A stretch of DNA of 11,524 nucleotides from Verrucomicrobiota bacterium. GTDB lineage: Bacteria; Verrucomicrobiota; Verrucomicrobiia; Limisphaerales; CANJXF01. Within the stretch, counting starts at the first letter, position 1. Each line of letters opens with the position of its first letter. This document shows positions 1 through 11,524 of this stretch, one piece after another. Below the pieces are notes generated by a model. The model was not told the DNA's origin and did no database searches. It saw only the letters and a program-made list of their open reading frames with translations. The position numbers and the translations under genes are program-made. The DNA lies in NCBI GenBank assembly GCA_038214755.1, contig JBBQRQ010000128.1, positions 1 to 11,524 on the forward strand. Direction: 5' to 3'.

Positions 1-140
1 ACAAAACACCCGCCTCTCTCTCTTCCCCTGCTGTCCCCCCCCTGCCTCCGGGGCGGGCCCCTCCCCCCCCCGCTTTTAAAAAACCCACCCCCCGGGCGTT
101 TCCCCGCGCCCCACCCCCCCCCCCCCCCCCCCCCCCCCTC
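1..140. other. C-rich low-complexity tract with a 25-nt poly-C run (114-138); probable sequencing/assembly artefact at a contig end
   Basis: Composition differs sharply from the rest of the window, with several C homopolymers and no ORF. It reads as poly-G plus G-rich noise on the - strand, the known failure pattern of two-colour Illumina chemistry. Confidence 0.7.
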
Positions 141-159: not shown

Positions 160-1200
160 TCAGCGAGCTTTGACACGCAAACCTATTTTCTCCGGAGTTT
201 GCGCGAATGATATTTTTCCGTTTGTCGCTGTCGCGCCCAAGTAAGGATCGTTGGTGATGAGAAGATTGCCGTCGATGTCGAGGTGGTCGGTCAATTCCGC
301 CAGATGCGCGGCGGCGGTGATGAGAATGCTCGTTTCGATCATGCAGCCGATCATGGTTTTCAATCCGAGTTTGCGCGCGGCTTGCAACGCTGCGTGCGCG
401 CCGGTGATGCCGCCGGTCTTGACTAATTTCGCGTTCACTCCGTGAAAACATTCCGCGCAATATTCCGCATCTTTCGCGTGATGAAATGATTCGTCGGCGA
501 AAATGGGCAACGGCGAACGCTGCTTGAGCCAAATCCAATCCGCGCGCGGAGCGGACGATGGCATGGGTTGTTCGACAAATTCGATGTTCGGATCTTCGGC
601 GAGCCATTCGATTTTTCGCAACGCGTCCTCTTTGGTTTTCCACGCTTCATTGGCATCGACGCGCACCGTCTTTTTCGGCGCGGCTTCGCGGAGGGCGGCC
701 ATGTTTTTTTCGTCGTCAGGCCCGCCCACTTTCAATTTCAAAATCGGGTAAGGTTCAGCTTCCAAAACTTTTTTCCGAATCATTTCCGGCGTATCGATTC
801 CAATGCTGAACGAGGTCACGTGGCGATTTTCTTTGAATCCCAATTTAAGAAAATCGTAAATCGGCTGATGAACTTTGCGCGCCGCTCCGTCGAGCAACGC
901 GATGTTAAGGGCGCACTTCGCGCCGTAATCACCGGGAAAAGTTTCGAGATAATTCATGCTGCCAGCGATGTCGTCGAACGAAAGTCGGTTCGCATCAATT
1001 TTTTGGAGAAACGTCATGACGGTATTGACGTTCTCGTCGTAACGCGACGAGGGAGCGGATTCGCCGAGCCCGACCACGCCTCCGGAGTCGGTCAAATCAA
1101 GCAGGACGATTTCAAAAATCCTTTTGCCGCTTTTCAGTCCGCTGGCGACGGTCCATTCGTGGGCTAGTTTGAGGTCGAACTTGCGAAAATTCATTTTCAT
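160..1200 (-). CDS. Dipeptide epimerase (L-Ala-D/L-Glu epimerase family, enolase superfamily, muconate-lactonizing-enzyme subgroup), 346 aa
   Basis: Has the KxK motif (LKLKVG), Mg ligands in VDANE, VEQP and ADES, the second catalytic Lys (NAKLVKTGG), GCMIE, and the DxD motif typical of dipeptide epimerases (LDIDG). Also has the N-terminal capping-domain motif GLGESAP. Confidence 0.88.
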   Translation of the reverse strand: MKMNFRKFDLKLAHEWTVASGLKSGKRIFEIVLLDLTDSGGVVGLGESAPSSRYDENVNTVMTFLQKIDANRLSFDDIAGSMNYLETFPGDYGAKCALNIALLDGAARKVHQPIYDFLKLGFKENRHVTSFSIGIDTPEMIRKKVLEAEPYPILKLKVGGPDDEKNMAALREAAPKKTVRVDANEAWKTKEDALRKIEWLAEDPNIEFVEQPMPSSAPRADWIWLKQRSPLPIFADESFHHAKDAEYCAECFHGVNAKLVKTGGITGAHAALQAARKLGLKTMIGCMIETSILITAAAHLAELTDHLDIDGNLLITNDPYLGATATNGKISFAQTPEKIGLRVKAR

Positions 1201-1588: not shown

Positions 1589-2239
1589 ATGTCAGATATT
1601 TTTCCTAAATGGACAAATCGGCTTCCGCTAAAAATCGCGGTGGGCGCGGCGGTGGTCGTCACTGCGGCGATGGCTGGCGTCAATTATTATGTGACCCCGA
1701 AGTACACCCGCGTCGGTTATCAGCCGATTCAGCCGGTTCATTTTTCTCACGAGATTCACGCGGGCCAACTCGGAATGGATTGCCGCTACTGTCACAACGG
1801 CGTCGAAAAATCCTGGTATTCCAATATCCCGACCGCTTCGCTCTGCATGAATTGTCACAACCAGGTTTTGAAGGACAGCCCGAAACTCGAACTGGTTCGC
1901 GAGAGCGCGTTGAGCGGCAAACCGATTGAGTGGGTGCAGGTTCACATCACGCCCGACTACGTTTATTTCAATCATTCCGTCCACGTAAATCGCGGCGTCA
2001 GTTGCGTGAAATGCCACGGGCAAATCAATCACGCCGATGAAGTGCGCCATGAAAAATCGTTCAGCATGACGTTCTGTCTGGATTGCCATCGCGACCCGGC
2101 GAAGGAAATTCGCGACCCGAAAGATGTTTATAATTTGGATTTAAAAATCAGCGCGGCGGAGCAGGAGAAGATGGGCAAAAAATTTGTCCATGATTGGAAA
2201 GTGAACGCGTCGCAAAATTGCTCGGCCTGTCATCGATGA
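1589..2239 (+). CDS. actA: ACIII subunit A, membrane-anchored pentaheme cytochrome c (216 aa)
   Basis: N-terminal TM helix, GYQPIQPVHFSHEIHAG, five CxxCH motifs (CRYCH, CMNCH, CVKCH, CLDCH, CSACH) and PDYVYFNHSVHV. First gene of the ACIII gene order. Confidence 0.95.
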   Translation: MSDIFPKWTNRLPLKIAVGAAVVVTAAMAGVNYYVTPKYTRVGYQPIQPVHFSHEIHAGQLGMDCRYCHNGVEKSWYSNIPTASLCMNCHNQVLKDSPKLELVRESALSGKPIEWVQVHITPDYVYFNHSVHVNRGVSCVKCHGQINHADEVRHEKSFSMTFCLDCHRDPAKEIRDPKDVYNLDLKISAAEQEKMGKKFVHDWKVNASQNCSACHR

Positions 2240-5200
2240 AAACAATTCCACCCATTTGTCCCGAACCGAAAGTCGGCCCGAAATATTGGCGCAGTCTGGA
2301 CCAATTGGCGGACACGCCTGAATTCAATGAATGGGTCGAGCGCGAATTTCCCTCGGGCGCGAGTGAGTTTAACGATCCGGTTTCACGACGACATTTCGTG
2401 AAAATCATGTCGGCTTCGTTTCTTTTGGGCGGACTCGGTTTGGCCGGTTGCCGCCGCCCCGAAGAACACATTTTGCCGTTTTCGAAAATGCCGGAAGGCT
2501 ACGTTCACGGTGTCGCGCAATATTATGCCACAGCTCGACCAACTCGCGGCAGCGCAGTTCCGCTGCTCGTTAAATCCCACGACGGCCGGCCAACGAAAAT
2601 CGAAGGAAACCCAAATCATCCGTCGAGCAACGGCGGCACGGATGCTTTCACGCAAGCGTCGATTTTGAATCTTTACGATCCCGACCGGGCGATGCGTTTC
2701 ACAAAAAGCGGCAGCGAAAAATCTTCCGCTGACGCTTTCGACGCACTGGCAGACATTTCCAAAAAATTTCAGGCAACTGGCGGTGAAGGGTTGAGTTTTC
2801 TTCTCGAGCAAAGCAGTTCGCCTTCGCGCGAGCGCCTGCAAAAAGTGATTAGCGAAAAATTTCCGAAAGTGCGCTGGTTTATTTACGAGCCGGTTGATTT
2901 GAATGTGGAACGTCAGGCATCGGCCATCGCTTTTGGCCAGCCCGTCGCTGCGGAATATCGTTTGGAAAACGCCAAACGGATTTTATCGCTCGACTGCGAT
3001 TTCCTCGGTGCGGAAGAAAATGCTTTTCGCTCCATTCGCGGATTCGCCAAAGGCCGTAAACTCGAAACGCCCAACGACGAAATGAATCGGCTCTACGTCG
3101 TGGAAGGAATTTTTTCCATCACCGGCATGAACGCGGATCATCGTCTGCGGATTCGGCCCACTCAGATTCCCGCATTGGCCGCGCGTCTTGCTTCGGAAAT
3201 TCTCAAAGGATCAAATCTAACTGGGCTCAGCGACTTGGCTGGTTCCTTTAAAGGCGACGAAAAATGGATTTCTGAAACCGCAAAAGATTTGCTGGCGCAT
3301 GGAAAAAACAGCGTGGTTTTGGCGGGACATCGTCAGCCACTCGCCGTTCATTTGCTCGCGCATGCCCTCAACGATGCACTCGGCAGTGCTGGAAATTCAG
3401 TCGTATATCATTCCATTTCGCAAGCGAACCAAGGCTCGATCAAAGAGTTGACGACCGCGTTGAATGCAAACGAAGTCGATACGCTCATTGTTGTTGGTGG
3501 AAATCAAACTTACACCGCGCCCGCTGATTTGGACTGGTCGAGCGCCGTCGCCAAAGCGAAGGCGATTGTGCGCCTCGGCTATTACGAAGACGAATCGTCG
3601 GTCGGCGCGACGTGGCATTTGCCTGCCGCGCATTTTCTCGAATCCTGGGGCGACGCACGCACCGCTGACGGTACATTCGTTTCGATTCAGCCGTTGATCG
3701 AACCACTTTTCAACGGCGTGACCGAACTTGAAGTGCTCGCTCGCATCGGCGGTTTGAACACGACCCGCCCGCTCGATATTATTCGCGAAACTTTCCAAAC
3801 CATTTCGCCCACTAACTTTGAGGAAGGCTGGAAAAAGTTTTTGCACGATGGCTATCTCGAAAAGAGCGCGGCTCAACCTGTCGCGGCGAAAATAAATTTT
3901 GGCGCAATCAGTCAGGAACTTTCCCGCGCGAAATCTCCCGCCGCCGCCAGCGAACTCGACATCGTTTTCCATCGCGATTACAGCGTCGATGACGGTCGCT
4001 ACAATAACAACGGTTGGCTCCAGGAAATGCCCGACCCCATCACAAAAGTAGTTTGGGAAAATGTCATCATGGTCAGCCCAGCCACGGCCAAGTCGCTTGA
4101 TCTGCGCGTGCTGAAAAATCGCAAGCCCGATGATTTAAAAAATAATGATCGCGGCGTTGTCGCAGGAAACGACATCGTCGAAGTCGAATTGAATGGACGC
4201 AAAGTTCAAGGCGCGGTTTGGGTTCAACCCGGTCTGGCCGACAACACCGTTGCCCTCGCGCTCGGTTATGGCCGCACGAAAACCGGTCGCGTTGGCACCG
4301 GCGCTGGATACAACGCATATTTGCTTCGCACCTCCGATTCTCCGTGGTTTGCCAGTGGCGCGAAAATTCGCAAGACCGGCGAAATGCGCCGCGTCGTTTC
4401 CACCCAGGAACACGGCTCGATGGAAGGCCGCCCGATTATTCGCGAAGGAAATTTGGAGCAGTTCAAAGCGAAACCCGATTTCGCCAGGAACATGGATTTG
4501 GAAGCGCACACGCCGAACGCCGGGCCGATTTACAAGCATCCTTACAATTCGAGTCCCGAGTTGAAGAGCAAAGTTCATCAATGGGGAATGTCCATCGACA
4601 TGAATTCCTGCGTCGCCTGCAACGCTTGCGTCGTCGCCTGCCAGAGCGAAAACAACATTCCCATCGTTGGCAAAGATCAAGTGGAGCGCGGTCGCGAAAT
4701 GCACTGGATGCGCATCGACCGCTACTACGCCGGCGATGTTTCCGATCCGCAAGTCGCCAATCAGCCGATGCTTTGTCAGCATTGCGAAAGCGCGCCGTGC
4801 GAAACCGTTTGCCCCGTCAACGCGACCGTTCACGACGAGGAAGGCATCAACGTCATGGCCTACAATCGCTGTGTCGGCACTCGCTATTGTTCCAACAACT
4901 GCGCGTGGAAAGTCCGCCGGTTTAATTTTTTCGATTTCAATAAGCGTCCCAATAATTTCGCCGACACCTCGAAAGGCGCGTTTGGAAAACTTTATCAAGG
5001 CCCGCTCGCGAAAAAAGAGCCGCTCGAATACGACATGATCAAGATGCTGAAAAATCCCGACGTCACCGTCCGGATGCGCGGCGTCATGGAGAAATGCAGT
5101 TTCTGTATCCAACGAATTGAAGGCGCGAAAATTTCCCAGAAAGTCAAAGCCGGAGCGTCGGGTGATGTGGCCGTTCCAGAGGGAACCTTCACGACCGCCT

Positions 5201-5487
5201 GCGCGCAGGTCTGTCCGGCTGAGGCGATTGTTTTCGGAAATCTTTTGGACGAAAACAGCCGCGTTTCGAAATTGAAAAAACAGGAGCGCGATTACGCCGT
5301 CCTCGGATTTCTCGATACCAAACCGCGTTTGACTTATCTCGCGCGTATTCGCAATCCGAATCCGCTGATGCCCGATCACAAGGAATATCCCGCCAGTTTT
5401 GAAGAATACGAAAAATCCAACGGCGAATCCGGTGAACCAAAACACGAAATGAATGGCGCCGCCCACGGCGAGAAAGGAGCGATTTAA
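2236..5487 (+). CDS. actB: ACIII subunit B, Tat-exported molybdopterin-oxidoreductase-like domain fused to an NrfC/DmsB-like Fe-S domain (1083 aa)
   Basis: Start placed at ATG 2236, which overlaps the actA stop (ATGA), rather than the ORF-track 2194. Has YWRSL...EREFP, Tat motif SRRHFVK, lipobox [28 protein letters not shown], and Cys motifs [36 protein letters not shown] and CSFC...CAQVCP. Confidence 0.95.
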
Positions 5488-6911
5488 TGTCGGAGGTCAC
5501 CACAGTGAAAGTGCAAGCTCCACCTCCTGAATTGGCGCGTCAGCCGTTGGTGCTGAACAATCACAGCTTCGCCTGGATCTCGGATAAAATTTCCGGCCTC
5601 GTCGAAGGCAAAACTCAAAAATGGTGGTGGCCCGCCTTCATCATCAGCGCGTCGGTGATGCTCATGATGTTTTCGTGCATCGCCTATCTGATTTCAACGG
5701 GCGTCGGTGTTTGGGGATTGAATCAGCCCGTCGGTTGGGCGTGGGACATTACGAATTTCGTTTTCTGGATCGGCATCGGTCACGCAGGAACTTTGATTTC
5801 CGCCATTCTCTTTTTGCTCCGACAAAAATGGCGCACGTCCATCAATCGAGCCGCCGAAGCCATGACGCTTTTCGCCGTGGTCTGCGCCGGAATTTTTCCA
5901 GTCATCCACACCGGACGCATTTGGTTCGCGTTGTATCCCGGATTTCTAATTCCGTTTCCAAATTCCAATAGCATCTGGCCGCAATTTCGCTCGCCGCTGT
6001 TGTGGGACGTGTTTGCTGTTTCGACGTACGGAACCGTTTCGCTTTTGTTTTGGTATGTCGGACTCGTGCCCGATCTCGCGACGCTGCGTGATCGCGCCAT
6101 CACGAAGGGCCGCAAGTTTTTCTACGGTCTTTTCGCGTTGGGCTGGACCGGCTCAAACCGCCATTGGAGCAATTACGAAAAAGCCTATTTGATTCTGGCC
6201 GGTGTTTCGACGCCGCTGGTTCTCTCCGTCCATTCCATCGTCTCCTTCGACTTCGCTGTCTCGCAAGTTCCCGGCTGGCACACAACAATTTTCCCGCCGT
6301 ATTTCGTTGCCGGCGCAATTTTCTCCGGCTTCGGCATGGTGCTGACATTGCTGGTTCCGTTGCGCACGCTTTGCAAATTGGAGGACGTCATCACCGTTCG
6401 TCACGTGGAGTTAATGTGCAAAGTCATTTTGGCGACGGGTTCAATTGTCGGTTACGCCTACGCCATGGAATTTTTCATCGCGTGGTATGGCGGCAATCCA
6501 TACGAAAAATATGCCTTCATGAACCGCGCGTTTGGTCCGTATTGGTGGGCTTACTGGACCATGATTTCCTGCAACGTGATCAGCCCGCATCTGTTCTGGT
6601 TCAAATGGTGCCGAACTCGAATGTGGTTTGTATTTCTCGTTTCAATCGTGGTGAACATCGGCATGTGGTTTGAGCGCTTCGTCATCATCGTGACGTCGCT
6701 GCATCGCGATTATCTGCCGTCGAGCTGGAGTTATTTCAAACCAAGCTGGGTGGACATCTGCACGTTCATCGGCTCGTTCGGATTATTTTGCACGCTGTTC
6801 CTTTTGTTCATGCGATTCCTGCCGATGATCGCCATCGCGGAAGTCAAAGGCGTCACTGCGCAAGCTGATCCGCATCATCCCGCCGGTGGCGCGAAAGGAG
6901 AACACCATTGA
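5487..6911 (+). CDS. actC: ACIII subunit C, NrfD/PsrC-family quinol-oxidising membrane subunit (474 aa)
   Basis: Has [88 protein letters not shown] and [17 protein letters not shown] overlap with actB and SD AAAGGAG at 5473-5479. Confidence 0.96.
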
Positions 6912-8104: not shown

Positions 8105-9454
8105 ATGGATTCGCGTTCAGAAAATTTCGCCGTAGCCGCGCCTCGTGAGAGCGCGGTCGACGTCAAAACGGAGATACCTTCGCGAGGCGCGACTTCCTGG
8201 CCGGCCTGGTTGCGTAACTTGCCAATGATCCTGGTGGTCGTTGGCGGACTGTCCGCGCTCCTCGGATTTTTCACCATTCACGATGGCGGGATGCAACTCG
8301 GCTATTCTTATTTGCTGGCCTACATGTTTTTCCTCAGCGTGTGTCTCGGCAGTTTGTTCCTCGTGATTTTGCATCATCTGTTCGATGCGATGTGGACGGT
8401 GCCGATTCGCCGCGTTCTCGAACACATTGCATTTCTTCTGCCCATCATGGCGCTGCTCTTCATTCCCATCGCGCTGCTCGCTCCGCAAATTTATCCGTGG
8501 ATGAGCATCAACCCGCATGACGACCACTCGCTCCACGCCAAGTCCGCGTTGATTAACCAAAAAGCATTTTACATCGTCGCCGCAATCATCTTCGCCATCT
8601 GGACTTTCCTCACCTACAAACTGCGCGCCTGGTCACTGGAGCAAGACCGCACCGGCTCGGCCAAATGCACTCGCGCCATGCGATTTTATTCGGCGTGGGG
8701 AATTTTTGCTTTCGCGCTCACGCTCACGATGGCGGCGATCTTCTGGATGAAATCGCTCCAGCACCAGTGGTTCTCCACCATGTATGGCGTTTATTATTTT
8801 GCCGGCAGTGTTTGGGTGACCTACGCCACGATTTACGTTCTCGCTTTGGTTTTGCGCGACGCCGGTCCGCTGCGCGACGTCATTCGCCCGCGACAATTTC
8901 TCGATCTTGGCGTGATGTTTTTTGCTTTCACCGTTTTCTACGCCTACATCGCGTTCTCGCAATATTTTCTGATCTGGAACGCCGCTGTGCCGGAGGAAAC
9001 TTTTTGGTATGTCCTGCGCGAACACGGTAGCTGGTATCAAATCGGAATGCTCATCATCTTCGGGCATTTTCTTTTGCCCTTTCTGACCTTGCTGCGAATC
9101 GACTGGAAACTAAAACTCCCCATCATGCTGCCGCTTTGCGCGTGGGCGTGGGTCATGCACTTCTGCGACATGTCGTTCAACATCACGCCCGTTCTGCAAA
9201 TTTTCCGCAAAGCGCGCGTGATGCCCGGCGACCTCGCCGTCAACATGAGGACTGTCACTCCGGACAATTTTGCCATCCATCCGCTCGACCTTGCTTGTCT
9301 CGCGTTTATCGGCGGCGTGCTCGCGCTCGTGTTCATCAAATATTTAAAATCCAATCCTCCGTATCCGCAAAAAGACCCGCGCATCGCGGAAACGATGGGC
9401 GTTTATGTTCCGGCGACCTCCGACATTTCCATCGCGCACGGAGGTGGACAATGA
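8105..9454 (+). CDS. actF: ACIII subunit F, ActC-paralogous polytopic membrane subunit (449 aa)
   Basis: Start placed at ATG 8105, 1 nt after the actE stop; the ORF-track 7979 start lies inside actE. About 10 hydrophobic segments, with W...IRRVLE, IYPW, WMKSL...WFSTMYGVYYF and DLG...YAYIAFSQYFLIWNAAVPEETFWY. Confidence 0.92.
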   Translation: MDSRSENFAVAAPRESAVDVKTEIPSRGATSWPAWLRNLPMILVVVGGLSALLGFFTIHDGGMQLGYSYLLAYMFFLSVCLGSLFLVILHHLFDAMWTVPIRRVLEHIAFLLPIMALLFIPIALLAPQIYPWMSINPHDDHSLHAKSALINQKAFYIVAAIIFAIWTFLTYKLRAWSLEQDRTGSAKCTRAMRFYSAWGIFAFALTLTMAAIFWMKSLQHQWFSTMYGVYYFAGSVWVTYATIYVLALVLRDAGPLRDVIRPRQFLDLGVMFFAFTVFYAYIAFSQYFLIWNAAVPEETFWYVLREHGSWYQIGMLIIFGHFLLPFLTLLRIDWKLKLPIMLPLCAWAWVMHFCDMSFNITPVLQIFRKARVMPGDLAVNMRTVTPDNFAIHPLDLACLAFIGGVLALVFIKYLKSNPPYPQKDPRIAETMGVYVPATSDISIAHGGGQ

Positions 9455-9828
9455 ACAACGATTCTTGCTGCGCCAAAACAAAGTTCGCCGTTTATGCCCT
9501 CGCGATTCTCGGCTCGTTTCTCATCATGGCCGCGCTCGCAAAAATGATGCAGAACAAAACCTCGACGGGCGCAGTCGGCACCGACCAGGTCGCGCAACGG
9601 GAAAAAAATCTCGCCACCATGCGCGCTGAAAATGAACAGGCGTTGAAAAATTATGCGTGGCAGGATCAGGGCAAAGGTTTTGTTCGCCTGCCGATTGACC
9701 GCGCCATGGAAATTACTTTGCAGGAATGGCAGGACCCCAAAACGGCCCGATCCAATTTGAATGTTCGCGCTGACAAAGCGGCTGCGCCCGCGCCCAAGCC
9801 GCCGGAGAAACCGAGCGAGTTTGAATAA
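9451..9828 (+). CDS. ActG-like small single-TM subunit (125 aa)
   Basis: ATG at 9451 overlaps the actF stop (ATGA), with SD GGAGGT at 9440-9445. One TM helix followed by LKNYAWQDQGKGFVRLPIDRAME, which resembles the YxWxD..G.VRIPIxxAM motif of ActG-type proteins. Position directly after actF fits. Confidence 0.72.
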   Translation: MNNDSCCAKTKFAVYALAILGSFLIMAALAKMMQNKTSTGAVGTDQVAQREKNLATMRAENEQALKNYAWQDQGKGFVRLPIDRAMEITLQEWQDPKTARSNLNVRADKAAAPAPKPPEKPSEFE

Positions 9829-9843
9829 TTCATCTCTGTTCGC

Positions 9844-11289
9844 ATGAATTCATCGACTCAAGAATTGTCGTCCACGCCCACCGGTTCCTCGCCGGGCGCA
9901 ATTCTTTCCAACGAGGAAATCGATGCATCGTGTCGCGTTCCCGTTTTGATTTTTTTCGCCAGCGCCGCCATCTGGTTTTTGATCAGTGCCATTCTCGGCC
10001 TGATCGTTTCCATCAAATTGCATTCCCCCAATTTTCTCGCGAACTGCGCGTGGCTCACTTACGGACGCATTCGCCCCGTGCAAATGGATTCGCTCCTTTA
10101 CGGTTTCGCCGCGCAAGCCGCGTTCGGCGTTACGCTCTGGTTGTTCTGCCGACTCGGTCGGACACGGATGACCTATCACGCGCTGCCGATTCTCGGCGCG
10201 ATTTTCTGGAATATTGGAGTGAAGGTTGGTTGCCTCGGAATTCTGGCCGGCGACAGCACTGGTTTCGAATGGCTCGAATTTCCCCGCTACGCCTCGCCCA
10301 TTTTGTTTATCGGTTATCTGCTCATTGGCATTTGGGCGGTGCTGATGTTTCACGCGCGCAACAAGCGCCAGCTTTTCCCAACGCAGTGGTATCTGCTCGC
10401 CGCGCTCTTTTGGTTTGCGTGGATTTATTCCGCGGCGAATCTGCTTCTTGTTTTCGCTCCGGTTCGCGGCGTCGTGCAACTGTGCGTTGACGCGTGGTTC
10501 ACCAGCAATCTTCTCAATGTCTGGCTCTCGCTCATCGGTGTCGGAACGATTTTTTATTTTATTCCGAAACTCACCCATCGTCCGCTACACAGTTATTATC
10601 TCGCGTTTGGCGCCTTTTGGGGAATCGCTCTCTTCGGCGGCTGGGGCAATCTCAACGTCAACGCGCCCTTGCCGAGTTGGATTCCTGCGCTGAGCAACAT
10701 CGCCACTGTGATGATGATTTTGCCTCTGACCTGTATCGCTCTGAATCTGTGCCAAACGTTGCCGGGAAATTCTGCGGAAACGAAATCCGATTCCATTCTC
10801 GGGTTTATTCACTTTGGCGCGCGTCTTTTTTTGGTGGCGCAATTGCTGAATGTTCTCCTCGCGTTGCGCCCGCTCAACGATTTTTTTTACTTCACTTATT
10901 TCTCCACCGCGCAAATCCATTTCACCGTTTTGGGATTTTTCGCCAGCGTGATGTTTGGAGCGATCTATTACATCGCCCCGCGCCTCCTGGGAATGGAATC
11001 GCTCCCGGCGAAATCCGTTCGCCGCCATTTCCTCATCTTCGTCGGCGGTATTCTTATTTTTGGTTTGGCGCTTTTGCTGGGCGGAATTTTTCAGGGAATC
11101 GCCTTGCGCCATTCGCAAAAAACTTTTGCCGCGGTCACCAAAACCACTTTGCCATTTCTCCACTTCAGTACGATTGGAAGCTTGCTGATCGTCATCGCTG
11201 GTTTGATTTTTATTTTTAATTTATTTTTGCTCGGCGTCCGGTGCGGGCGCGCGTGGCGCGAAATTAAAAAATCGGAGGCGCGCCTGTGA
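9844..11289 (+). CDS. cbb3-type cytochrome c oxidase subunit I (CcoN)-like membrane protein lacking most heme/CuB ligands; probable pseudoenzyme (481 aa)
   Basis: About 12 hydrophobic segments with CcoN landmarks WLTYGRIRP, GDSTGFEWLEFP, YFIPKLTHRPLHSY, LPSW and GAIYYIAPRL. By manual alignment the ligand His positions read Q80, S221, absent HH and Q357; only H359 is kept. The frame is intact and full length. Confidence 0.85.
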   Translation: MNSSTQELSSTPTGSSPGAILSNEEIDASCRVPVLIFFASAAIWFLISAILGLIVSIKLHSPNFLANCAWLTYGRIRPVQMDSLLYGFAAQAAFGVTLWLFCRLGRTRMTYHALPILGAIFWNIGVKVGCLGILAGDSTGFEWLEFPRYASPILFIGYLLIGIWAVLMFHARNKRQLFPTQWYLLAALFWFAWIYSAANLLLVFAPVRGVVQLCVDAWFTSNLLNVWLSLIGVGTIFYFIPKLTHRPLHSYYLAFGAFWGIALFGGWGNLNVNAPLPSWIPALSNIATVMMILPLTCIALNLCQTLPGNSAETKSDSILGFIHFGARLFLVAQLLNVLLALRPLNDFFYFTYFSTAQIHFTVLGFFASVMFGAIYYIAPRLLGMESLPAKSVRRHFLIFVGGILIFGLALLLGGIFQGIALRHSQKTFAAVTKTTLPFLHFSTIGSLLIVIAGLIFIFNLFLLGVRCGRAWREIKKSEARL

Positions 11290-11318
11290 ATTTCGGCCCG
11301 CTCGGCATGAATCCATTC

Positions 11319-11342
11319 GTAGCCGTCGGCGTGAGGAGGCGG
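11319..11342 (+). repeat. GTAG-type REP-like unit GTAGCCGTCGGCGTGAGGAGGCGG
   Basis: 5' GTAG tetranucleotide followed by an imperfect GC-rich hairpin (CCGTC/GGCGG, one G-T pair). A related copy sits at 1265-1287. Confidence 0.5.
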
Positions 11343-11389
11343 GAACTCGGGCGCTTAACCGGAACGATTCAGTTGGGAAGATCGCTCGC

Positions 11390-11520
11390 CCTCACCCTAA
11401 CCCTCTCCCCCGAGGAGAGGGAACCTGCCCTCAGCACGCGCCATCACTCACTAAACCATGAACATTTTCCAGCGCTGCATAAGATTCTCCCTCTCCTCGG
11501 AGGAGAGGGCCGGGGTGAGG
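11390..11520. repeat. Inverted pair of 33-bp palindromic REP-like repeats (CCTCACCC...CCCTCTCC-N-GGAGAGGG type)
   Basis: 11390-11422 (CCTCACCCTAACCCTCTCCCCCGAGGAGAGGGA) matches the reverse complement of 11488-11520 (CCTCACCCCGGCCCTCTCCTCCGAGGAGAGGGA) at 29/33 positions. Each unit has its own 8-9 bp hairpin, and the spacer is 65 nt. Confidence 0.85.
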
Positions 11521-11524
11521 TCGA

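What the first reader, a model, noticed from the sequence alone, without database searches (positions are those of the whole stretch)
9844..11289. Full-length CcoN homologue stripped of its catalytic centre: a candidate heme-copper oxidase pseudoenzyme
Seen in sequence, aligned by eye to recalled CcoN motifs (P. stutzeri numbering). GRLRPLHTN becomes GRIRPVQMD, so heme b ligand H60 is Q80 (codon 10081). WWYGHN becomes AWFTSN, so CuB ligand H207 is S221 (codon 10504). YIWAGPHHLHYTALPDW becomes GGWGNLNVNAPLPSW, losing cross-linked Y251 and CuB ligands H257/H258 with a ~2-residue deletion (near 10636-10680). SHYTDWTIGHVH becomes FYFTYFSTAQIH, so heme b3 ligand H345 is Q357 (codon 10912) and only H347 (=H359) remains. 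The proton-channel His of VHFW is also replaced (GAFW). Established: these residues are essential in heme-copper O2 reductases, and the six His are also conserved in NO reductases, so this protein should reduce neither O2 nor NO. The ORF nevertheless has no stop or frameshift and keeps non-catalytic motifs (GRxRP, ExxE loop, YFxPK..RP..SY). Inference: it is maintained for another role, such as a scaffold joining ACIII to an oxidase or cytochrome, a partner of an active CcoN, an assembly factor, or an ion conduit. Automated pipelines would probably mis-annotate it as a working cbb3 oxidase.
Basis: partly seen in the sequence, partly recalled or inferred. Interest (0 to 1): 0.85.

Follow-up and report, generated by a model that had tools for sequence, protein, structure and literature searches.

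The report
Cofactor-less cbb3 oxidase subunit beside ACIII
A gene labelled as the catalytic core of a high-affinity oxygen-breathing enzyme has lost its haem and copper ligands, and its cofactor-loading helper gene, many times over in one bacterial class, yet is kept whole, most likely as a scaffold for the cytochromes that carry electrons out of the neighbouring respiratory complex.

Summary
Observation confirmed. Window 9844-11289 encodes a full-length CcoN fold (TM-score 0.86-0.89 to 3mk7) keeping 1 of 7 catalytic residues. It belongs to a Verrucomicrobiia CcoN subfamily fixed in the operon actABCDEFG-ccoN-ccoO-cytc. Among 150 copies examined, 63 keep all 7 residues, one keeps 6, and 86 keep 0-3. 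A tree of the Act proteins needs at least 9 changes of state, read as repeated losses. A small ccoS-like cofactor-insertion gene lies upstream in 62 of 63 intact operons; none of 86 dead operons has a whole one (one remnant). Dead copies stay under purifying selection (dN/dS about 0.2), their partners keep haem-c motifs, and a CcoN*-CcoO model scores 0.88 against 0.01 (possibly by likeness to cbb3). This genome has no intact CcoN, only an aa3 oxidase. Best reading: a cofactor-free scaffold holding the c-haem exit wire of alternative complex III (0.65). The database 'cbb3 subunit I' of two Methylacidiphilum species is such a dead copy, although papers list a cbb3 oxidase there. The scan noted this family before on other DNA (e1-4782966). 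Expression and binding were not measured.

The parts
9844..11289 (+). CcoN* : ligand-less CcoN (C-family heme-copper oxidase subunit I fold), 481 aa
   Evidence: PF00115 146.6 bits; TIGR00780 135.5 vs cut-off 583; 3mk7 alignment; model and fold search
10021..10023 (+). H60 of the K-x-H-x-P loop: subfamily His, not a canonical ligand; in the predicted CcoO interface
   Evidence: His in 118 of 120 close homologues, 38 of 41 intact and 42 of 66 dead copies; interface list
10081..10083 (+). Q80, site of haem b ligand H60
10504..10506 (+). S221, site of CuB ligand H207
10636..10680 (+). G265...W279: sites of Y251, H257, H258 lost, 2-residue deletion; P275, P277, W279 kept
10912..10920 (+). Q357 (site of haem b3 ligand H345) and H359 (H347, the one ligand left in this copy)
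9829..9843 (+). 15-nt gap between actG and ccoN*, where intact operons carry a ccoS-like gene
1589..2239 (+). actA, multihaem cytochrome c
   Evidence: PF14522, QrcA-like
2236..5487 (+). actB, molybdopterin-like plus Fe-S subunit
   Evidence: TIGR04519, QrcB/QrcC-like
5487..6911 (+). actC, NrfD-family membrane subunit
   Evidence: PF03916
6908..7489 (+). actD
   Evidence: PF11821 210.7 bits
7489..8103 (+). actE, monohaem cytochrome c
   Evidence: PF13442/PF00034
8105..9454 (+). actF (name from gene order; no family hit)
9451..9828 (+). actG-like small membrane protein (name from gene order and recall; no family hit)
11286..11524 (+). duplicated first codons of the ccoO-like gene followed by a multicopy palindromic repeat that breaks the contig; intact ccoO-like (245 aa) and cytochrome c (208 aa) genes lie on contig C106
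   Evidence: the 135-bp overlap also fits C111, synteny favours C106

Best explanation
CcoN* is a cofactor-free former oxidase subunit kept as a structural membrane subunit. The ancestral Verrucomicrobiia operon actABCDEFG-ccoS-ccoN-ccoO-cytc encoded alternative complex III with a dedicated C-type oxidase. In lineages that have another terminal oxidase the catalytic centre and ccoS were lost repeatedly. CcoN* stays because it holds the monohaem CcoO-like subunit, and with it the membrane-anchored cytochrome c, which together form the electron exit of ACIII toward whatever oxidase remains (aa3 in this genome). Shown: ligand loss, operon, co-loss of ccoS, repeated loss, purifying selection, intact haem-c motifs. 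Modelled: CcoN*-CcoO contact. Inferred: physical attachment to ACIII, direction of electron flow, the acceptor.
For: Same gene order act-N-O-c in every fetched locus of the subfamily long enough to show it, bar one probably misassembled and three not adjacent to actF; 164 of 175 genomes with a strong ActD hit carry the subfamily. Bimodal state: 41 intact, 66 with 0-2 of 7; a second set of 43 gave 22 intact, one 6/7, 20 with 0-3. ccoS upstream in 40 of 41 intact and 0 of 66 dead operons; predicted beforehand and found in 22 of 22 intact and 0 of 20 dead (one remnant) in the second set. In R. capsulatus lacking CcoS the complex assembles but is inactive and CcoS is needed for haem b, b3 and CuB (PMC8267372 passages citing Koch 2000 and Kulajta 2006), so an apo-CcoN can hold its partners. 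At least 9 changes on the ActC/D/E/F tree, monophyly of dead copies rejected (p-AU 8e-60). dN/dS 0.15-0.24 for the window against five genus relatives, 0.09-0.24 in 23 of 24 scorable dead pairs. CxxCH kept in 64 of 64 CcoO-like and 63 of 63 cytochrome c partners of dead copies. Model of CcoN* with CcoO-like: 0.88, best control 0.01, runs agree in 94% of contacts, partner pLDDT 80; the mark was reached by 116 of 157 solved and 2 of 215 mismatched pairs. 14 of 37 residues conserved in dead copies lie in the predicted interface, which is 78 of 449 positions (Fisher p 0.002). A-type oxidase present in 32 of 32 dead-copy genomes that are at least 98% complete, but missing from 8 of 41 intact-copy genomes. 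aa3 genes follow the module directly in several operons. One genome that lost CcoN* lost ccoO and cytc with it (G079).
Against: The complex score may only reflect likeness to solved cbb3. No contact with any Act subunit or with the cytochrome c was tested. G079 keeps ACIII and aa3 genes without the module, so it is dispensable at least once. The strict idea that the module replaces the missing haem c of aa3 fails in part: 13 of 29 scored dead-copy genomes have a CoxB with its own CxxCH. Selection is relaxed about threefold against intact copies (dN/dS 0.01-0.13). On the CcoN tree itself 62 of 66 dead copies group together and only 3 changes are needed; I read this as long-branch attraction, and holding one mixed family together was not rejected (p-AU 0.50), which does not prove it. 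The 8 intact-copy genomes without an A-type oxidase are from only 4 genera.
Confidence: 0.65

Rival explanations
1. Purely architectural relic: CcoN* (with CcoO and cytochrome c) is needed for ACIII to assemble or stay stable, and the c haems carry no useful flux; electrons leave from ActA/ActE directly.
For: The whole block is kept in 164 of 175 ActD genomes whatever the downstream oxidase type; with CcoN dead, CcoO is a dead end in the textbook direction of flow.
Against: CxxCH is kept in all 64 and 63 partners and the distal Met of the cytochrome c is invariant in 54 aligned rows; other act operons work without the block.
Confidence: 0.13
2. A new chemistry or carrier role: CcoN* binds a haem, quinone, lipid or metal by non-canonical ligands.
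For: 5 of 8 copies in family f40 keep both haem b ligands; a subfamily His (query H60) is near-invariant in close homologues.
Against: The former ligand sites vary freely, with no convergent replacement; conservation falls most in the catalytic C-terminal half (ratio 0.49-0.67 against 0.74-0.86 for most N-terminal segments); H60 is kept in only 42 of 66 dead copies; ccoS is gone.
Confidence: 0.07
3. Slow neutral decay of a redundant oxidase; the frame survives only because breaking it would be polar on ccoO and cytc.
For: Faster evolution than intact copies (median dN relative to actF 1.39 against 0.83); long branches; one complete loss (G079).
Against: dN/dS near 0.2; all 66 aligned dead copies are 447-522 aa (sequences under 440 aa were filtered out before that count); 37 positions at least 85% conserved across deep lineages; ccoS in the same operon was deleted cleanly while ccoN* was not.
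Confidence: 0.05
4. Ion or proton conduit, or gas channel, run on the CcoN fold.
For: The 12-helix fold is whole.
Against: T215, Y223, S240, Y317 and H337 sites (roles recalled) are 41 of 41 conserved in intact copies but mostly apolar or variable in dead ones; the window has S229, F237, A254, F329, Y349.
Confidence: 0.04
5. Partner, regulator or assembly factor for an active CcoN encoded elsewhere.
For: Many genomes also carry a fused intact CcoNO.
Against: This genome and at least 18 other dead-copy genomes show no intact CcoN, ccoS or ccoG.
Confidence: 0.04

Closest known systems
CcoN, catalytic subunit of cbb3 (C-family) oxygen reductase, P. stutzeri 3mk7
   Same: Fold (TM 0.86-0.89), non-catalytic loop motifs, a CcoO-family partner (PF02433) next door
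   Different: 1 of 7 catalytic residues, polar channel residues lost, no ccoS, fixed in the ACIII operon
Intact ACIII-linked CcoN of Verrucomicrobiia (63 copies seen here; ACIII with a C-type oxidase is noted for verrucomicrobial methanotrophs and Opitutaceae in PMC8498564)
   Same: Same clade (107 rows, support 100), same operon, same subfamily motifs
   Different: Those keep six His, Tyr, channel residues and ccoS; this copy does not
Apo-cbb3 complex of R. capsulatus ccoS mutants (as described in PMC8267372)
   Same: Assembled CcoN without haem b, b3, CuB, still with c-type partners
   Different: A laboratory mutant; here the state is fixed in the genes and selected
gNOR and other variant heme-copper families (PMC11214002)
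   Same: Heme-copper superfamily members with changed active-site residues
   Different: gNOR replaces one His and is thought active; here nearly all ligands are gone, with no conserved substitute
Dead-enzyme subunits within ACIII (ActB without molybdopterin, ActF as an ActC paralogue; recalled)
   Same: Enzyme fold kept for structure in the same complex
   Different: Those are universal ACIII parts; CcoN* comes from the terminal oxidase and still coexists with live orthologues

Membership tests
C-family (cbb3) oxygen reductase subunit I | 12-helix heme-copper oxidase fold closest to CcoN | tested here: met
C-family (cbb3) oxygen reductase subunit I | Six His ligands for low-spin haem, high-spin haem and CuB | tested here: not met
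   1 of 6
C-family (cbb3) oxygen reductase subunit I | Cross-linked Tyr in helix VII | tested here: not met
   G265
C-family (cbb3) oxygen reductase subunit I | Polar proton-channel residues (list recalled) | tested here: not met
   F237, A254, F329 at Y223, S240, Y317 sites
C-family (cbb3) oxygen reductase subunit I | CcoO monohaem partner | tested here: met
   PF02433 86.7 bits on C106; contig join inferred
C-family (cbb3) oxygen reductase subunit I | Cofactor-insertion gene ccoS | tested here: not met
   none in genome or operon
C-family (cbb3) oxygen reductase subunit I | O2 reduction, haem b/b3 and Cu content | not testable with these tools
   needs purified protein
NO reductases (cNOR, qNOR, gNOR and kin) | Haem ligands plus three His (or His/Asp) and Glu at the FeB site | tested here: not met
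   metal-site His absent; NOR structures rank below CcoN
ACIII-linked CcoN subfamily of Verrucomicrobiia | Position act-ccoN-ccoO-cytc and one clade apart from fused CcoNO | tested here: met
Pseudoenzyme | Fold kept, catalytic residues lost, purifying selection | tested here: met
Pseudoenzyme | Protein expressed with a non-catalytic function | not testable with these tools
   no expression data for this genome

The most novel reading that the evidence does not exclude
Verrucomicrobiia build an obligate ACIII-CcoN-CcoO-cytochrome c supercomplex whose oxidase core has been switched off about ten times independently, turning a terminal oxidase into a passive haem-c hub that feeds other acceptors, with haem-b-only copies as a caught intermediate; thermoacidophilic methanotrophs of the genus Methylacidiphilum would then have no cbb3 oxidase at all.
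Probability: 0.4. Interest if true: 0.85.

Novelty: new variant of a known kind. Interest (0 to 1): 0.72.

Why it matters
A heme-copper oxidase family without its cofactors was not found in the papers searched; one classifier removed such sequences by design (PMC3084760) and a 2024 survey calls the active-site His conserved in all families but gNOR (PMC11214002). Live and dead orthologues in the same operon, sometimes the same genus, give a repeated natural experiment on what an oxidase subunit does besides catalysis and on how ACIII is wired. It also affects physiology read from genomes: papers list a cbb3 oxidase next to ACIII in Methylacidiphilum and one links it to high O2 affinity (PMC6688271), but the database proteins so named in M. 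kamchatkense and M. infernorum keep 1 of 7 catalytic residues. Presence of ccoS is a simple marker to tell live from dead copies.

Tried and rejected
RNA runs: none was listed for the operon; no evidence either way. 'Sequencing artefact or single decayed copy': rejected, 2039 hits at E<=1e-20 and 365 clusters at E<=1e-30; 129 of 135 screened representatives keep 0-2 of 7 residues. 'Broken ccoO in this genome': rejected, the gene restarts whole on C106. 'Module replaces the haem c of caa3': only partly true. ccoG did not separate live from dead copies; it tracks the fused CcoNO. No bd oxidase found in this genome. Promoter/terminator scan and ESM Atlas searches added nothing decisive. Papers: eight full-text searches for a prior description found none that notes the ligand loss; subscription papers such as Refojo 2010 and Ducluzeau 2008, the SI of PMC11214002 and the body of Table S10 of PMC6688271 were not seen and could mention it. 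PMC2474590 had no hit for the terms; PMC4013037, PMC13608581 and PMC13274419 were not informative.

Full report
OBSERVATION. The window is the whole contig C128 of a 5.1-Mb, 97% complete genome; named relatives are Verrucomicrobiota. The ORF 9844-11289 gives 481 aa without a stop. It hits PF00115 (146.6 bits) and TIGR00780 far under its cut-off (135.5 against 583). Its only solved sequence relatives are five cbb3 CcoN chains. An AlphaFold2 model (mean pLDDT 92.4) matches 3mk7 at TM 0.86-0.89. The role of each residue is recalled; that six His and a Tyr define the active enzymes is stated in PMC3084760 and PMC11214002 (passages).

SURROUNDINGS. Upstream lie actA-E (family hits) and two genes named actF and actG from gene order. 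After ccoN* the first codons of a ccoO-like gene are duplicated around an insert of about 323 nt, a palindromic repeat with 33 copies of at least 120 bp in the genome, which breaks the contig. The gene restarts whole on C106 (245 aa, PF02433) followed by a membrane-anchored monohaem cytochrome c (208 aa). The 135-bp overlap also fits C111; relatives favour C106. The genome has one other COX1-family gene, an A-type CoxA with a CuA-type CoxB lacking haem c, and no hit for intact CcoN, ccoS, ccoG or bd oxidase.

THE FAMILY. The loss is not private. In the 120 best homologues the H60 site is His in 6, the H207 site in 10, the H347 site in 25. I fetched CcoN-like loci from 40 relatives and 300 phylum genomes found with TIGR00780 and PF00115. 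Sequences of at least 440 aa scoring best against the window protein numbered 107: 41 keep all seven residues, 66 keep 0-2, none 3-6. They sit in the order actABCDEF(G)-ccoN-ccoO-cytc and form one clade apart from fused CcoNO (support 100). In 251 class genomes, 164 of the 175 with a strong ActD hit (my cut, E<1e-25; 14 weak hits set aside) carry the subfamily. Ten of the 11 exceptions were fetched: five have a different act operon ending in a CoxB with its own haem c, two end at a contig edge, two are divergent operons, and one (G079) has lost ccoN, ccoO and cytc together (positive control).

REPEATED LOSS. On a FastTree tree of ActC/D/E/F (98 of 107 rows; the window is represented by three genus relatives) the state changes at least 9 times; an IQ-TREE tree of 49 rows also needs 9 and rejects one clade of dead copies (p-AU 8e-60). 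Dead G298 shares a genus with live G310 and G064. Regaining seven residues plus a gene is implausible, so I read these as losses, about 12 by my count of the drawn tree. Against this, the CcoN tree joins 62 of 66 dead copies (3 changes), with long-branch warnings; holding one mixed family together costs no likelihood (p-AU 0.50).

CO-LOSS OF ccoS. A PF03597 search hit a small ORF just upstream of ccoN in 11 of 13 live-copy genomes that lack fused CcoNO and in none of 19 such dead-copy genomes. A profile from those 11 found it in 40 of 41 live operons (the last is at a contig end; the 11 seeds match by construction) and 0 of 66 dead ones. I wrote down the prediction and tested 43 more loci: 22 live, all with ccoS (one missed by my position filter and recovered); one copy with a single H207R change and ccoS; 20 dead, 19 without and one with a truncated remnant in a probably misassembled scaffold. 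CcoS is needed for haem b, b3 and CuB in CcoN, and without it the R. capsulatus complex assembles but is inactive (PMC8267372 and PMC12648545 passages citing Koch 2000, Kulajta 2006, Rauch 2025, which I did not read). This is independent evidence that dead copies receive no cofactors, and a precedent that apo-CcoN holds its partners.

SELECTION. Nei-Gojobori estimates (dS often near 1, so rough): window against five genus relatives 0.15-0.24; 24 scorable dead pairs of 25 gave 0.09-0.24 with one 0.41; 11 scorable live pairs of 21 gave 0.01-0.13. Selection is relaxed but purifying. In dead copies 37 positions remain at least 85% conserved, and conservation falls most in helices 6-12, the catalytic half.

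PARTNERS. CcoO-like and cytochrome c partners of dead copies keep CxxCH in 64 of 64 and 63 of 63. A model of CcoN* with the CcoO-like subunit scored 0.88, best control 0.01 (mark reached by 116 of 157 solved and 2 of 215 mismatched pairs; 94% contact agreement; partner pLDDT 80). A like complex is solved, so the pass may show likeness only. Independently of the score, 14 of the 37 conserved positions fall in the 78-residue predicted interface (p 0.002; 8 of 23 without Gly and Pro). A-type CoxA was found in 58 of 62 dead-copy genomes (32 of 32 at 98% completeness or more; G079 set aside) and 33 of 41 live-copy genomes, the 8 misses coming from 4 genera: the oxidase dies where another exists. 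CoxB lacks haem c in 16 of 29 scored dead-copy genomes, including all of the window's order, but has one in 13, so the module is not simply a stand-in for the caa3 haem.

MECHANISM. Most likely CcoN* is a cofactor-free scaffold that keeps CcoO and the anchored cytochrome c in place as the electron exit of ACIII (0.65). That it is not an O2 or NO reductase is near certain from established chemistry. Attachment to ACIII, flow direction and acceptor are inferred. Rivals: pure assembly relic (0.13), new ligand chemistry (0.07; f40 copies keep the haem b pair in 5 of 8), decay (0.05), ion conduit (0.04), partner of a live CcoN (0.04).

COMPARISON WITH PRINT. PMC8498564, PMC6688271, PMC10205796 and bioRxiv 2024.01.15.574570 (passages) list a cbb3 oxidase in verrucomicrobial methanotrophs; three of them place it next to ACIII, and PMC6688271 links it to high O2 affinity. 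The proteins named cytochrome oxidase of M. kamchatkense Kam1 (P0269) and cbb3-type subunit I of M. infernorum (P0271) keep 1 of 7 residues. Four genomes of their kin family f39 show act-N*-O-c followed by aa3 genes and no CcoN-like hit better than E 4.5e-7. That the papers meant these genes is inferred from gene position; Table S10 itself was not visible. Eight searches found no paper noting the loss; the library lacks most subscription papers. The live orthologues, repeated losses and ccoS co-loss were not in the lines shown.

VERDICT. Real, clade-wide and selected: a pseudoenzyme variant of C-family subunit I tied to ACIII. New variant of a known kind; interest 0.72.

Noticed in passing
window 11286-11524; G000:C106 start: The ribosome-binding site and first codons of the ccoO-like gene are duplicated on both sides of a ~323-nt palindromic repeat (33 genome copies of at least 120 bp), so the insert left the gene intact.
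   Followed up: partly
L063, L064, L230, L232, L233 (family f40): Copies keep both haem b ligands and R57 but have lost the CuB and haem b3 ligands: a possible haem-b-only intermediate (5 of 8 f40 loci).
   Followed up: partly
L074:9508-10317, L076:9360-10202: The actG position holds a membrane-anchored protein fused to a c-type cytochrome domain.
   Followed up: no
L093-L110, L136-L161: Intact ACIII-linked CcoN score only 208-258 bits on TIGR00780 (cut-off 583), have Gly for H243 and, in the three intact rows shown, an extra His-His pair in helix 8: an unstudied live C-family subfamily.
   Followed up: partly
L177 (G079): actG is followed directly by coxC; ccoN*, ccoO, cytc and coxA are gone from the operon.
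   Followed up: partly
L225 (G418): Single H207R change (CGC) with ccoS kept: either an early step of loss or an assembly error.
   Followed up: no
L245 (G466): Truncated ccoS remnant, CcoN* cut short and followed by eukaryote-like coding DNA; probable misassembly.
   Followed up: partly
L170, L172-L175, L183, L187-L189: A second type of act operon ending in a haem-c-bearing CoxB, CoxA, CoxC; four genomes carry both types.
   Followed up: partly
L029, L030, L091, L092, L099, L104, L146: Other divergent but intact CcoN clades, not linked to act genes.
   Followed up: no
G000:C8:51679-56264: The aa3 genes run coxA-coxC-...-coxB, with coxB last and no haem c.
   Followed up: partly
window 160-1200 (-): Enolase-superfamily dipeptide epimerase-like gene, divergent from actA.
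   Followed up: no
window 1-140: Poly-C low-complexity contig end, probably an assembly artefact.
   Followed up: no
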